Shown here: one piece after another, positions 46,454-48,476 of the stretch
Layout of the letters: each line of letters begins with the position of its first letter
How positions within the stretch are numbered: the first letter of the stretch is position 1
Assembly (NCBI GenBank): GCA_000004985.1
Contig: GG738846.1
Length of the DNA stretch: 64,000 nucleotides
From: Naegleria gruberi
Taxonomy: Eukaryota
Reading direction: 5' to 3' (one strand)
Position numbers and translations under genes: made by a program
The notes under the pieces: generated by a model
The model's database searches: none
Seen by the model: the letters and a program-made list of their open reading frames with translations, nothing else
What the model was told of the DNA's origin: nothing

Positions 46454-47659
46454 TTACTCTATTATACAATTACTGTTTCTCTTGTTGGGTATCGTTCCGT
46501 TATCGCTGTTAGGTGAGCCAGTTGTTGGCGATCTAGGCATGTATCTCACTAATTGCGACAGGGAATATTTACAGCTGTATGATATTGCTGTTTCTATTAA
46601 ATCGTGTGAGAAATGTTTCAAAACCGAAAACTTACCAATGCACTTCTTAACACCTTGTCCTGATTTAGCAGAAGTTTCAATATATCCAACACAATTACCA
46701 ATCTTGTTGGCCAATGCCACTCCTTCATCAAATGTGACCACTCCATACTTTGAAAATTTAGAATCGATATAATATTTGAGTGAACCTGATTCGTTGATAT
46801 TCGATATTCTCAAATCCAATTTGGTTCCACATAAAAGGATTGGAACATTTGGTGCACATAAATTTAATTCTCTTATCCAAATATTTAAAACATTTTGAAA
46901 GCTCGATGTGTTCATTAAATCAAAACAACATATAAACAAGTCACATCCTGTATAACTCAGAGGTCTATCAATTTGATTTTAAAGCAACATTTCAATAAAA
47001 ACATACCTTATTTTGTCATAATCTTCTGATCCAGCAGTATCTATAATAGTGACAGCCCATGTCTTGTTATCAAATGTTGAATATGTTGTAAAATTATCAA
47101 AAATAGTTGGAAGATATTGATCTGATAAAAATTCATCATTGGCAAACCTCCCCAACAATGAAGTCTTTCCAACAGCACCTATAAATAATGAATTATTTAC
47201 AAAAATAATTATTAACCAAGAAACTTACCATCTCCAACCACTTTGTCAACAAAAAGTTATTGTAAAAAACATAACAAGCCCCTACTTACCCACAATTTTA
47301 ACAGGCATTGATTGATTAACTGCACTTGAAGGTGAAATACTCAAGACATTTTCCTCACTACCAGTAGAAACTAGAGCTGAATTTAAATGATTTGCACTGT
47401 TATTACCATTATTAGAAGTGGAGTTTCCATTATTATTATTGGGTGAATGGAAGAAAATGTAATCTTCTTTACTCCACGGTGACTTTTTAAATTTGATATC
47501 TTTTTTCTCGAATGATCCTGTTTTTAACAATATAAAATCATTATACACAATTTCTGAATAAATATTTTTGAATTTTGTAATCTTGTTTCGTCTATTATTT
47601 GATTTTTGCATTTTCTGAGTTTCATTTGGATAAATCATTGAACAAACTGTCCCAAGCAT
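46454..47659 (-). CDS. Atypical Rho/Rac-family small GTPase with a ~115-aa N/S-rich N-terminal extension. 4 exons: 47290-47659, a 12-nt micro-exon at 47229-47240, 47007-47222, 46454-46964.
   Basis: Spliced product ..[40 protein letters not shown]...[18 protein letters not shown]...LLCGTKLDL...ETSAKSGQGV. The Rho-type DTAGQEDY motif reads DTAGSEDY here (catalytic Gln to Ser). C-terminus ..NCIIE. Introns gtaagtagggg...caaag (49 nt), gtaagtttc..., gtatgttttt...gatag (42 nt). Confidence 0.6.
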
Positions 47660-47759
47660 ATATTAGTACAAATTATCGTGTGAATTTATCATCATTATTA
47701 AAATTATCAAATATATAAAAAGGCACACACATATTTCAAAGTAATTATTATAAATATGA

Positions 47760-48476
47760 TTAAATTAAATGTGTGTAAATAAAATCATTACCTTGTTCCC
47801 ATAAAATTTCATCTTCACAAGCTCTGTACCAACTCTTACAAACCAAACAAACTCTATAAAATGAAATTCCATTCAAATATGTAAATATTTTAATCAAAAT
47901 TTCATTTGGTAAATCAGATGCCAAACCATATAAATTTCTCATTGATCCATTTTCATCCAATCCAATCAACATTTGATTAGAAATTACATTTCCATGTATC
48001 GTAATTCTCCTATCATCATCCAATGTTCTCATTGAAACGACAGAATTTGCATACTTGACACTACTATTTCTCTTCTGACCAAATAAACCCTTCCTACTTC
48101 GATGAGATTTTACATATTTTGCAGGTGATGATGATGGTGAAGATGTTGGTGGTATTGTTGAAGCATTTATGGATGATGGTGATGATGATGATGAATTAAA
48201 TGAAGAAATTATATTATTCGAATTGGATGAAGAATTTAATGATGATGGAATGCTCACATCACTACTAGTGGTCAATGACAATCCGGGAATGTTCAAATTG
48301 TTATAATTATGATTGGTGGTAGTTATGTGAGGATTGGTAGAAGGAGAAAGTTGCCGAATGTTCGTTGTTGTGGTTGTTGGTGGTGATGTGTTGTTGTTGT
48401 TATTGATGGTGGACTTTCCACCTCCAACAATCAACATTTTTTCTTCTATTTTTATTAAACAAGTGACAATTTCCAT
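47760..48476 (-). CDS. F-box protein (F-box at the C-terminal end of this ORF); possibly the 5' exon of the downstream Rho GTPase gene
   Basis: ATG at 48474-48476. S/N/T-rich low-complexity region, then LPNEILIKIFTYLNGISFYRVCLVCKSWYRACEDEILWEQ (F-box). A GTAATG donor directly follows ..WEQ. Confidence 0.55.
   Translation of the reverse strand: MEIVTCLIKIEEKMLIVGGGKSTINNNNNTSPPTTTTTNIRQLSPSTNPHITTTNHNYNNLNIPGLSLTTSSDVSIPSSLNSSSNSNNIISSFNSSSSSPSSINASTIPPTSSPSSSPAKYVKSHRSRKGLFGQKRNSSVKYANSVVSMRTLDDDRRITIHGNVISNQMLIGLDENGSMRNLYGLASDLPNEILIKIFTYLNGISFYRVCLVCKSWYRACEDEILWEQGNDFIYTHLI

What the first reader, a model, noticed from the sequence alone, without database searches (positions are those of the whole stretch)
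46454..48476. F-box ORF is splice-compatible and in-frame with a downstream atypical Rho GTPase (Gln61 to Ser): possible F-box-Rho fusion gene
Seen in sequence: the F-box ORF (48476 to 47760, minus) ends ..EDEILWEQ immediately before a GTAATG donor. An AT-rich ~140-nt stretch follows and ends ..gggacAG, directly at the start of the 47659 exon. Joining donor and acceptor preserves frame (..WEQ-V-CSMIYPNETQK..). The separation between the two ORFs is only ~100 bp, too short for a same-strand intergenic region. Downstream the gene continues through a 12-nt micro-exon (tggttggagatg, completing GDGAVGKT) into a Rho/Rac GTPase domain. In that domain the catalytic Gln of DTAGQEDY is Ser (DTAGSEDY) and the C-terminus is ..NCIIE, an unusual CaaX with X=E. 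Established knowledge: Gln61/63 substitutions make Rho proteins GTPase-deficient (Rnd, RhoH, RhoBTB). RhoBTB proteins couple a Rho domain to a Cul3 adaptor. Inference: an F-box plus Rho architecture would be an SCF/Cul1-linked analogue. The alternative is two separate genes with an unusually long N-terminal extension on the GTPase.
Basis: partly seen in the sequence, partly recalled or inferred. Interest (0 to 1): 0.65.

Follow-up and report, generated by a model that had tools for sequence, protein, structure and literature searches.

The report
F-box–Rho fusion gene in Naegleria
This is one real six-exon Naegleria gruberi gene that joins a ubiquitin-ligase docking module (F-box) to a Rac-like GTPase lacking its catalytic glutamine; the same fusion occurs across heterolobosean amoebae, apparently without a published description.

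Summary
A six-exon minus-strand model (48476-46454, all introns GT..AG) gives a 564-aa protein: low-complexity N-terminus, F-box (Pfam 6.7e-16), conserved linker, Rho-family GTPase (Pfam Ras 1.8e-38; best solved relatives TC10/Rac1) and a C-terminal CIIE.

The fusion does not rest on the predicted splice. The Acrasis kona orthologue and a metagenomic relative are single intronless ORFs spanning both domains. Willaertia magna has the F-box, linker and P-loop in one 1099-nt exon. Two other Naegleria-type loci share intron 1 (same codon and phase, sequence unconserved) and the 12-nt micro-exon.

An exhaustive profile search with the non-GTPase part found only about 8 clusters in 1.84 billion representatives. 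Every full-length one carries the Rho domain, S/P/T instead of Gln61, and Cys at position -4.

The window is N. gruberi, whose public protein set returned no match to either half of the gene.

The function is inferred: a membrane-anchored, GTP-locked Rho module attached to Skp1-Cul1, analogous to RhoBTB-Cul3. A published F-box-GTPase precedent exists (trypanosome FRP), so this is a new variant of a known kind.

The parts
47792..48476 (-). Exon 1 (685 nt; aa 1-228 plus 1 nt). Encodes the low-complexity Ser/Thr/Asn-rich N-terminus, a conserved basic motif KSHRSRKGLFGQKRNSSVKY (48110-48051), the conserved RITIHG motif (48011-47991), and the F-box from 47918 to the exon end.
   Evidence: The F-box profile matches Fbxw7, Skp2 and FBXL chains solved with Skp1.
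47647..47791 (-). Intron 1 (145 nt, GTAATG...ACAG, GC 21%, phase 1), placed at the end of the F-box.
   Evidence: Same codon and phase in N. lovaniensis (151 nt) and L005 (80 nt), with unconserved sequence and lengths not in multiples of three. Absent in Willaertia, Acrasis and P0004. Read-through reaches a stop after 10 codons.
47290..47646 (-). Exon 2 (357 nt). Encodes the last F-box residues, YPNETQ, the conserved linker core FKNIYSEIVYNDFILLKTGSFEKKDIKFKKSPWSKEDYIFFH (47572-47447), an Asn/Ser-rich spacer, and the start of strand beta1 (PVKIV).
   Evidence: The linker is conserved in all family members, with invariant D265, T271, G272 and Y291. It is predicted with pLDDT about 83-89. No solved relative by sequence.
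47241..47289 (-). Intron 2 (49 nt, GTAAGT...AAAG).
   Evidence: The homologous intron is 72 nt in N. lovaniensis.
47229..47240 (-). Exon 3: a 12-nt micro-exon TGGTTGGAGATG that completes KIV-VVGD-G of the P-loop.
   Evidence: It is a conserved 12-nt island (TGGTTGGTGATG) bounded by AG and GT in N. lovaniensis and L005, inside diverged intron sequence. Fragment model P0078 shows gene callers reading through this donor.
47179..47228 (-). Intron 3 (50 nt, GTAAGT...ATAG).
47007..47178 (-). Exon 4 (172 nt). Encodes AVGKT of the P-loop, switch I [9 protein letters not shown] (47116-47090) and DTAGSEDY (47041-47018). The Ser codon replacing the catalytic Gln61 is at 47029-47027.
   Evidence: (Ser aligns with Gln61 of Rac1 and TC10).
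46965..47006 (-). Intron 4 (42 nt, GTATGT...ATAG). Retaining it would give a stop (..DKIRYVFIEMLL*).
   Evidence: Not present in N. lovaniensis, which instead has an intron after ..SSF.
46636..46964 (-). Exon 5 (329 nt). Encodes RPLSY..., TKLD (46825-46814), an extended Rho-insert region (46810-46742) and ETSAK (46678-46664).
46594..46635 (-). Intron 5 (42 nt, GTAAGT...ATAG). It is in frame and stop-free, but removing it gives a gap-free alignment with the orthologues in helix alpha5.
46454..46593 (-). Exon 6 (140 nt). Encodes the end of alpha5, a Ser/Pro-rich hypervariable tail, the Cxxx box CIIE (46468-46457) and the stop codon.
   Evidence: Cys at -4 is invariant in every full-length family member.

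Best explanation
Window 48476-46454 (minus strand) is one six-exon Naegleria gruberi gene encoding a 564-aa F-box-Rho protein. It belongs to a small, conserved, apparently heterolobosean family with a fixed layout: a variable low-complexity N-terminus, an RITxHG motif, a canonical F-box, a helical extension, a family-specific linker (LLKTGxW...KKSPWSKEDY), a disordered spacer, a Rac-like GTPase, and a C-terminal Cxxx box. That much is shown here. In the GTPase, the nucleotide-binding motifs are intact (GDGAVGKT, T35, DTAG, TKLD, SAK) and the Rac-type effector loop is kept, but the catalytic Gln61 is replaced by S, P or T throughout the family. The mechanism is inferred from established knowledge of Ras/Rho Q61 substitutions, F-box proteins and CaaX processing. 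The Rho module is probably GAP-insensitive and mostly GTP-bound. The conserved C-terminal Cys is probably prenylated and anchors the protein to membranes. The F-box probably docks Skp1-Cul1-Rbx1. On that reading the protein is a membrane-tethered SCF substrate receptor whose substrate-binding module is a permanently 'on' Rho domain, presenting Rho-GTP-binding partners (effectors, GAPs) for ubiquitination. Its own abundance would be set by SCF-dependent autoubiquitination rather than by GTP hydrolysis. Confidence is about 0.95 for the gene structure and family, and about 0.35 for the SCF-receptor mechanism.
For: Gene model: all five introns are GT..AG and the reading frame is clean at 564 aa, with F-box-like 6.7e-16 and Ras 1.8e-38. 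Evidence for a single gene: the Acrasis kona orthologue is an uninterrupted 1419-nt ORF. P0004 is an uninterrupted 2160-nt ORF in three metagenome contigs. Willaertia exon 1 (1099 nt) spans the F-box, linker and P-loop. N. lovaniensis and L005 share the intron 1 position and phase and the 12-nt micro-exon, while their intron sequences differ. N. lovaniensis exon 2 has no upstream ATG, so a separate GTPase gene could not encode the conserved linker. Family: an exhaustive HMM search with the F-box-plus-linker profile found only about 8 clusters matching the whole profile, and every full-length one has a Ras/Rho domain. Residue 61 is S, P or T and Cys at -4 is invariant. Rho identity: the top 60 PDB sequence hits are all Rho family (TC10 1.1e-40, Rac1 about 1e-38), with the alignment running through the insert region, and Foldseek gives TM about 0.8 to TC10, Rac and RhoA. 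F-box: the profile matches Fbxw7, Skp2, FBXL5, FBXL2 and beta-TrCP, with 39% identity to the Skp2 F-box. Hits that extend beyond the F-box are F-box/WD40 receptors, consistent with a receptor-type helical linker. Precedents for the mechanism: prenylated F-box proteins FBXL2 and FBXO10 (PMC9988375, PMC11042265), and an F-box-GTPase fusion linked to rapid turnover, TbFRP (PMC3593210).
Against: There is no transcript, protein or interaction data for any family member. Skp1 binding, nucleotide state, prenylation and substrates are all untested. The structure model is only moderate (pLDDT 65.6, pTM 0.62, from 9 sequences), and I could not inspect the inter-domain geometry. X = E (this gene) and X = G (Willaertia) are non-canonical CaaX endings. 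No small GTPase domain is established as an SCF substrate-binding module. F-box proteins can also act outside SCF complexes, or the F-box may serve only as a turnover signal for the GTPase.
Confidence: 0.8

Rival explanations
1. There are two adjacent same-strand genes. One is an F-box-only protein that stops at 47760 (..WEQGNDFIYTHLI*). The other is an atypical Rho GTPase with a long N-terminal extension that starts at the ATG at 47659.
For: Both ORFs exist as listed, and an in-frame ATG (MLGTV...) lies 13 nt upstream of exon 2. Gaps of about 100 bp between same-strand genes are normal in Naegleria. Prokaryote-style gene callers do split the locus this way.
Against: The orthologues in Acrasis and P0004 are single intronless ORFs, and Willaertia has no intron at this point. 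The ATG is not conserved: the upstream extension in N. lovaniensis has no Met. Protein conservation is continuous across the junction (ILWEQVC.INYP.ETQ). The read-through tails are unconserved and end quickly. The intron lengths of 145, 151 and 80 nt are not related by multiples of three.
Confidence: 0.03
2. It is one fusion gene, but the F-box works mainly as a built-in turnover or off-switch module. Because the Rho domain cannot switch itself off by hydrolysis, SCF-dependent self-ubiquitination sets its lifetime, and no other substrates are targeted.
For: Gln61 is lost across the whole family. The TbFRP authors propose F-box-linked rapid proteolysis of an F-box-GTPase (PMC3593210). From established knowledge (my own, not tested here): hydrolysis-deficient Rho proteins such as Rnd3, RhoH and RhoBTB2 are controlled by their abundance and degradation, and F-box proteins are commonly autoubiquitinated within SCF complexes.
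Against: The effector loop is kept almost identical to Rac (YLPTIFDNF versus YIPTVFDNY), and the linker is strongly conserved. Both point to selection for partner binding, not just instability. The two roles are not mutually exclusive.
Confidence: 0.3
3. It is one fusion gene acting outside a cullin ligase. On this view the F-box recruits Skp1 into a non-SCF complex at a membrane marked by the prenylated Rho domain, for trafficking or cytoskeletal regulation, as with yeast Rcy1-Skp1.
For: A C-terminal Cxxx box is conserved, so membrane targeting is plausible. From my own knowledge, non-SCF F-box/Skp1 complexes are established in yeast. The TbFRP domains localise to endosomal membranes.
Against: The F-box is closest to classical SCF receptors such as Fbxw7 and Skp2, and it is followed by a receptor-type helical extension. 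No feature points specifically to a non-SCF role.
Confidence: 0.1
4. The N. gruberi copy is a decaying or non-functional locus, which would explain why it is missing from the public protein set.
For: No N. gruberi protein matched either half of the gene, although N. gruberi proteins are in that database. The CIIE ending is atypical.
Against: The ORF is intact through six exons with canonical splice sites. The GTPase core is about 85% identical to N. lovaniensis, and every family-invariant residue is kept. The 12-nt micro-exon and 42-50-nt introns are a sufficient technical reason for gene-prediction failure, as the fragment model P0078 shows.
Confidence: 0.03

Closest known systems
RhoBTB proteins (animal RhoBTB1-3, Dictyostelium RacA): an atypical Rho domain fused to BTB domains that bind Cul3
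   Same: An N- or C-terminally extended, hydrolysis-deficient Rho-family domain is covalently joined to a cullin-RING ligase adaptor module. Regulation is expected to go through ubiquitination and turnover rather than the GTP cycle.
   Different: The adaptor here is an F-box (Skp1-Cul1), not a BTB domain (Cul3); no BTB domain was detected. The domain order is reversed, with the adaptor N-terminal and Rho C-terminal. A Cxxx box is kept, whereas to my knowledge RhoBTB proteins lack CaaX. The lineage is different (Heterolobosea). This is an analogue by convergence, not a homologue.
TbFRP (Tb927.7.3790), the FYVE-F-box-GTPase protein of Euglenozoa (PMC3593210)
   Same: It is the only published F-box plus small-GTPase fusion I found. 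It has the same order (F-box N-terminal to the GTPase) and comes from the sister lineage within Discoba. Its authors link the F-box to rapid turnover.
   Different: [quoted passage not shown] The Naegleria family has no FYVE domain, its GTPase is clearly Rho-type with a Rho insert, and it has a Cxxx box. The FRP authors found no N. gruberi orthologue.
Prenylated F-box proteins FBXL2, FBXL20 and FBXO10 (PMC9988375, PMC5627969, PMC11042265)
   Same: An F-box protein carries a C-terminal CaaX box, giving a lipid-anchored, compartment-specific SCF ligase.
   Different: Those proteins use LRR or other repeats as the substrate-binding domain and end in geranylgeranyl-type CaaX boxes. Here the domain in front of the Cxxx box is a Rho GTPase, and the X residues (E, Q, G, M, A, S) point to farnesyl-type or non-canonical processing.
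Atypical GTPase-deficient Rho proteins (Rnd1-3, RhoH)
   Same: The catalytic Gln61 is substituted while nucleotide-binding motifs and the prenylation box are kept, so the protein is expected to be constitutively GTP-bound.
   Different: Rnd and RhoH are stand-alone small proteins that also carry changes at position 12. Here Gly12 is retained (GDGAVGKT), and about 340 residues of F-box and linker precede the G domain.
TbRHP (Tb927.10.6240), the 44-kDa Rho-like protein of trypanosomes (PMC3214021)
   Same: It is an oversized Rho-like protein from Discoba with Ser at the Gln61-equivalent position (..SSGSE) and a CaaX box (CVIM).
   Different: It is reported to lack the Rho insert, and no F-box is reported. 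A relationship to this family was not tested because no sequence was available. It remains only a lead.

Membership tests
Rho family of small GTPases | G1-G5 nucleotide-binding motifs (P-loop GxxxxGK[ST], switch I Thr, DxxG, [NT]KxD, SA[KL]) | tested here: met
   [21 protein letters not shown], TKLD and ETSAK are all present. Pfam Ras 1.8e-38.
Rho family of small GTPases | Closest relatives are Rho, Rac or Cdc42 rather than Ras, Rab or Arf | tested here: met
   The top 60 PDB sequence matches are all TC10, Rac, ROP or RhoA, at 1e-40 to 3e-34. Foldseek top hits are the same, with TM about 0.8 normalised by target length.
Rho family of small GTPases | Rho insert between beta5 and alpha4 | tested here: met
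   The segment RISNINESGSLKYYIDSKFSKYG aligns across the Rac1 and TC10 insert region and is a few residues longer. The ortholog model has a helix after a low-confidence loop there (residues 300-308).
Rho family of small GTPases (classical, cycling members) | Catalytic Gln61 (Rac numbering) | tested here: not met
   Ser in the window aligns to Gln61. The position is S, P or T in all family members. The protein is therefore an atypical Rho.
Rho family of small GTPases | C-terminal CaaX prenylation box | tested here: inconclusive
   Cys at -4 is invariant (CIIE, CIIQ, CIIG, CGIM, CGIA, CGLM, CGIS, CKFM). X = E is non-canonical but is not among the residues restrictive for yeast FTase (K, P, R), and Ile at a2 is favourable. 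Prenylation itself cannot be tested here.
F-box proteins / SCF substrate receptors | F-box domain above curated thresholds | tested here: met
   PF12937 scores 58.2 bits (cut-off 24.3) and PF00646 scores 40.0 bits (cut-off 20.5) at aa 187-230. The family profile hits Fbxw7, Skp2 and FBXL5 at 1e-9 to 1e-10.
F-box proteins / SCF substrate receptors | Binding to Skp1 and assembly with Cul1-Rbx1 | not testable with these tools
   This needs pull-down or co-expression experiments. There is only sequence similarity to F-boxes that have solved Skp1 complexes.
F-box proteins / SCF substrate receptors | A C-terminal protein-interaction domain that recruits substrates | tested here: inconclusive
   The C-terminal domain is a Rho GTPase with a Rac-like effector loop. 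That is plausible as an interaction module, but a GTPase is not an established substrate-receptor domain.
RhoBTB | Tandem BTB domains C-terminal to the Rho domain | tested here: not met
   No BTB (PF00651) hit in the 564-aa protein at E <= 0.01. Not a member; functional analogue only.
FRP (FYVE-F-box-GTPase of Euglenozoa) | N-terminal FYVE domain | tested here: not met
   No FYVE hit in the window protein or in P0046 and P0047. The precomputed Pfam lists of the family members show only F-box and Ras/Roc-type families.
FRP (FYVE-F-box-GTPase of Euglenozoa) | Rab-like GTPase domain (reported as closest to Rab18) and sequence orthology to Tb927.7.3790 | not tested
   No FRP sequence was available. 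The GTPase here is Rho-type, and the FRP paper reports no N. gruberi orthologue.

The most novel reading that the evidence does not exclude
Heterolobosea independently evolved a Cul1-linked counterpart of RhoBTB. On this reading a GTP-locked, farnesylated Rac-like domain acts as the substrate-recognition module of a membrane-bound SCF ligase, so that proteins binding 'active Rho' are ubiquitinated, and the family-specific linker gates that interaction. It would be the first case of a small GTPase domain serving as an F-box protein's substrate receptor. Together with RhoBTB-Cul3 and euglenozoan FRP, it would show repeated convergent wiring of small GTPases to cullin ligases.
Probability: 0.3. 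Interest if true: 0.7.

Novelty: new variant of a known kind. Interest (0 to 1): 0.5.

Why it matters
Rho GTPases that cannot hydrolyse GTP must be controlled in some other way. RhoBTB showed one answer, a direct fusion to a Cul3 adaptor. This family shows a second, independent answer in a very distant eukaryotic lineage: fusion to an F-box, the Cul1 adaptor, while keeping a lipid-anchor box.

If the inferred mechanism holds, it gives a natural, genetically compact model of a membrane-tethered SCF ligase that reads out "Rho-GTP-binding" as its degron. It is also an example of convergent GTPase-cullin coupling, alongside trypanosome FRP.

Practically, the gene appears to be missing from the public N. 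gruberi protein set, and prokaryote-style callers fragment it in a Naegleria-type locus from environmental assemblies, probably because of a 12-nt micro-exon and 42-50-nt introns. That matters for surveys of Rho and F-box repertoires in Naegleria, including the pathogen N. fowleri. It may also explain why earlier searches for F-box-GTPase proteins in N. gruberi found nothing.

Tried and rejected
1. My first guess, from AT-richness and Asn/Thr runs, was a dictyostelid. Searches (heterolobosean best hits; 100% identity to an N. gruberi protein) rejected it.

2. Exact-match look-ups of three window ORFs and of P0192 found no record. I therefore could not see the public N. gruberi gene calls at this locus. 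The statement that the gene is unannotated rests only on the lack of any N. gruberi hit.

3. The word-indexed profile search with the F-box-plus-linker alignment was insensitive and recovered only 2 family members. The exhaustive HMMER search replaced it.

4. I looked for a deeper link to other F-box architectures through hits extending past the F-box. These were ordinary F-box/WD40 or F-box-only proteins with no GTPase or FYVE domain.

5. The relationship to TbFRP and TbRHP could not be tested, because no sequence text is held in the papers or supplements.

6. The fold search of the model only recovered the Rho fold and gave nothing on the linker.

7. P0015 (Clastostelium transcriptome) has Rho halves flanking a 2OG-oxygenase-like region and an F-box. 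I set it aside as a different and possibly chimeric architecture, outside this family.

8. Literature searches for an F-box-Rho description in Heterolobosea or Naegleria found nothing. The library does not cover subscription-only papers, such as book chapters on Rho evolution.
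Full report
OBSERVATION

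I read 46000-49200 on the minus strand, listed the ORFs, and assembled the model by script.

The exons are:
- exon 1: 48476-47792
- exon 2: 47646-47290
- exon 3: 47240-47229
- exon 4: 47178-47007
- exon 5: 46964-46636
- exon 6: 46593-46454

All five introns are GT..AG, with lengths of 145, 49, 50, 42 and 42 nt and GC of 16-31%. The CDS is 1695 nt and encodes 564 aa.

- the ..EDEILWEQ|GTAATG donor;
- the ..GGGACAG acceptor;
- the WEQ-V-CSMIYPNETQK join, in phase 1;
- the 12-nt micro-exon TGGTTGGAGATG, which restores [13 protein letters not shown];
- DTAGSEDY;
- the ..NCIIE C-terminus.

Pfam finds F-box-like at aa 187-230 (6.7e-16, 58 bits against a cut-off of 24) and Ras at aa 345-522 (1.8e-38). 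One small correction: exon 2 begins at 47646, and the ATG at 47659 lies within the last 13 nt of intron 1.

ONE GENE OR TWO

A frame-preserving GT..AG pair proves little on its own, so the test was comparative. A search with the 564-aa model returned proteins with the same F-box plus Ras/Rho composition from Naegleria lovaniensis (569 aa, 58% identity), Willaertia magna (558 aa) and Acrasis kona (472 aa), plus several metagenomic and EukProt sequences.

Their genomic loci settle the question.
- **Acrasis:** the gene is an uninterrupted 1419-nt ORF that translates directly to the full F-box-Rho protein.
- **P0004:** this metagenomic relative is an uninterrupted 2160-nt ORF in three separate contigs.
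- **Willaertia:** exon 1 (1099 nt) runs from the start codon through the F-box and linker into the P-loop. The only intron is 46-48 nt, inside GAVGKT.
- **N. lovaniensis and L005/L006:** L005/L006 is a syntenic Naegleria-type locus at about 83-99% identity by segment to N. lovaniensis. In both, intron 1 is at the same codon and phase as in the window, but its length (151 and 80 nt) and sequence are unconserved. The 12-nt micro-exon survives as a conserved island (TGGTTGGTGATG) bounded by AG and GT inside diverged intron sequence.

Two more observations argue against separate genes. Read-through of the exon 1 donor ends after 10 codons in the window and gives an unrelated tail in N. lovaniensis. 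N. lovaniensis also has no ATG upstream of exon 2, so a separate GTPase gene there could not encode the conserved linker. Protein conservation is continuous across the junction (ILWEQVC.INYP.ETQ).

I put the two-gene alternative at about 3%.

Same-strand CDS gaps of 50-92 bp are routine in the N. lovaniensis locus, and in the window the stop codon lies only 23 bp from the end of a convergent ORF.

WHAT THE FAMILY LOOKS LIKE

The alignment of ten members shows these features in order:
- a variable low-complexity N-terminus;
- a basic motif;
- a conserved RITxHG motif;
- a canonical F-box;
- YYPEET;
- a family-specific linker (FY+xIF...DLxLLKTGxWxN...KKSPWSKEDYxF), with invariant D265, T271, G272 and Y291 in window numbering;
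- a disordered spacer;
- a Rho domain;
- a short tail ending in Cxxx.

I ran an exhaustive HMMER search of 1.84 billion cluster representatives using only the non-GTPase part as the profile. Just 6 proteins scored below 1e-30, and about 8 clusters matched across the whole profile or its linker. All other hits matched only the F-box. Every full-length member carries the Ras/Rho domain and none has a FYVE domain. The fusion is therefore the ancestral, fixed state of a narrow family and not a one-off.

The named members are all Heterolobosea. The unnamed ones come from environmental assemblies and one EukProt gene set.

THE TWO DOMAINS

**GTPase.** It is unambiguously Rho family.
- The 60 best solved-structure sequence matches are all TC10, Rac, plant ROP or RhoA (1e-40 to 3e-34). 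The alignment runs through a slightly extended Rho-insert region.
- An AlphaFold model of the N. lovaniensis orthologue superposes on TC10, Rac and RhoA with TM about 0.8 on the target.
- The P-loop is identical to Rac1, Gly12 is kept, and switch I is YLPTIFDNF (Rac1: YIPTVFDNY). TKLD and SAK are present.
- The catalytic Gln61 is Ser. Across the family the position is S, P or T and never Q.
- Cys at -4 is invariant. X is E, Q, G, M, A or S.
- In a comprehensive yeast screen the restrictive X residues are K, P and R, and Ile at a2 is favourable (bioRxiv 10.1101/2023.02.06.527295). CIIE is therefore unusual but not excluded from farnesylation.

**F-box.** The family profile matches receptors that have solved Skp1 complexes (Fbxw7, Skp2, FBXL5, FBXL2, beta-TrCP at 1e-10 to 1e-6), and the window's F-box is 39% identical to that of Skp2.
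- In the model the F-box helices are followed by a helical extension.
- The linker core is confidently predicted (pLDDT about 83-89).
- Overall confidence is only moderate (pLDDT 65.6, pTM 0.62).
- The linker has no solved relative by sequence.
- Profile hits that reach past the F-box are ordinary F-box/WD40 receptors.

HOW IT PROBABLY WORKS (INFERRED)

From established knowledge, substitutions at Gln61 in Ras and Rho proteins abolish intrinsic and GAP-stimulated hydrolysis. F-box domains dock Skp1-Cul1-Rbx1, and the domain C-terminal to the F-box recruits substrates. CaaX cysteines are prenylated.

Putting these together, the most likely function is a membrane-anchored SCF receptor whose recognition module is a permanently GTP-bound Rac-like domain. 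It would ubiquitinate proteins that bind active Rho, and it would itself be turned over by autoubiquitination. I give this reading about 0.35.

The main rival is that the F-box is only a built-in off-switch or turnover device for a GTPase that cannot switch itself off (about 0.3). A non-SCF Skp1 complex is a minor alternative (about 0.1). None of this is tested.

COMPARISON WITH KNOWN SYSTEMS

- **RhoBTB** is the closest functional analogue: an atypical Rho domain fused to a cullin adaptor. Here the adaptor is an F-box rather than BTB, the domain order is reversed, a Cxxx box is kept, and no BTB domain is present. It is not a member of that family.
- **TbFRP** is a published F-box-GTPase fusion, the FYVE-F-box-GTPase protein of Euglenozoa (PMC3593210). 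That paper calls the combination unique and reports no N. gruberi orthologue. The Naegleria family lacks FYVE and has a Rho-type G domain rather than a Rab18-like one, so it is not an FRP member on the features I could test. Direct sequence comparison was not possible.
- **Prenylated F-box proteins** (FBXL2, FBXO10) are a precedent for lipid-anchored SCF ligases.
- **TbRHP** (44 kDa..SSGSE, CVIM) is an untested lead for a more distant discoban relative.

ORGANISM AND ANNOTATION STATUS

The neighbouring Ca2+-ATPase ORF is 100% identical to a "predicted protein [Naegleria gruberi]". N. gruberi proteins are therefore in the database searched, yet no N. gruberi protein matched either half of this gene there.

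The gene thus seems to be absent from the public N. gruberi protein set. In the L005/L006 assemblies it is fragmented: a 301-aa piece plus the 90-aa P0078, which reads through the exon 2 donor. The micro-exon and very short introns are a sufficient reason. I could not view the N. gruberi gene calls directly.

NOVELTY AND VERDICT

The fusion gene is real and belongs to a conserved heterolobosean family. Orthologues are already deposited as single proteins under uninformative names: "hypothetical protein"/"F-box domain-containing protein" for N. lovaniensis and "Rho-related protein RAC" for Acrasis kona. I found no paper describing the family, although subscription-only literature was not searchable.

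Because RhoBTB and FRP already establish the principle of coupling a GTPase to a cullin adaptor, I rate this as a new variant of a known kind, with interest 0.5. It would rise to about 0.7 if the Rho domain proves to be an SCF substrate receptor.

Noticed in passing
window 49064-52258 (+): A single-exon plasma-membrane-type Ca2+-ATPase (P-type; Pfam Cation_ATPase_N/C and E1-E2_ATPase) is transcribed divergently from the F-box-Rho gene, with 587 bp between the two ATGs. The public N. gruberi model (P0192, 1023 aa) is 100% identical but 41 residues shorter than the 1064-aa ORF, so its start codon may be mis-set.
   Followed up: partly
window 52416-53375 (+): A 319-aa ORF with a ubiquitin-conjugating enzyme (UQ_con) domain (3.9e-20) lies about 4 kb from the F-box-Rho gene. 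This is probably coincidental, and it is not a neighbour of the gene in the N. lovaniensis locus.
   Followed up: no
window 53651-57403 (-): A 1250-aa ORF with a Pep3/Vps18 beta-propeller and a clathrin/VPS repeat, likely a HOPS/CORVET subunit (Vps18-like).
   Followed up: no
window 45582-46430 (+) versus the gene's stop at 46454: A convergent 282-aa ORF with no Pfam hit ends only 23 bp from the F-box-Rho stop codon, so the 3' UTRs of the two genes must overlap or be extremely short.
   Followed up: no
L005 2976-4273 and L006 2784-4081: In environmental and Logan assemblies of a Naegleria close to N. lovaniensis (GC 37%), the orthologue is split by prokaryote-style gene calling into a 301-aa piece and a 90-aa piece (P0078). 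P0078 reads through the exon 2 donor (..PIKVVGKW..). This shows how the gene gets lost from protein sets.
   Followed up: yes
L001 (N. lovaniensis) versus window, GTPase exons: Intron positions in the G domain differ between Naegleria species. The window has 42-nt introns after DKI(R) and after KKCI, while N. lovaniensis has a single 44-nt intron after ..SSF. In Willaertia the only intron lies 6 nt downstream of the Naegleria intron 3 position. This suggests intron turnover or sliding within the family.
   Followed up: partly
P0015 (Clastostelium recurvatum transcriptome, EukProt): A 661-aa transcript model has a normal Gln61 Rac-like domain that seems to be interrupted at the Rho-insert position by about 450 residues, including a 2OG-oxygenase-like region and an F-box. 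It is either a different Rho/F-box combination in Amoebozoa or an assembly chimera.
   Followed up: no
L004 181-1163 (-) and 2650-3408 (-), Acrasis kona: The Acrasis F-box-Rho gene lies within 3 kb of a CYRI (CYRIA-B Rac1-binding domain) gene and next to a BTB-domain gene. These are Rac-related and cullin-adaptor-related neighbours, possibly by chance.
   Followed up: no
window 48110-47991 (-), aa 123-162: Two conserved motifs upstream of the F-box have unknown function: a basic stretch, KSHRSRKGLFGQKRNSSVKY (K/R-rich, possibly an NLS or phospho-regulated), and RRITIHG, which is nearly invariant across the family as R[ILV]T[ILVM]HG.
   Followed up: partly
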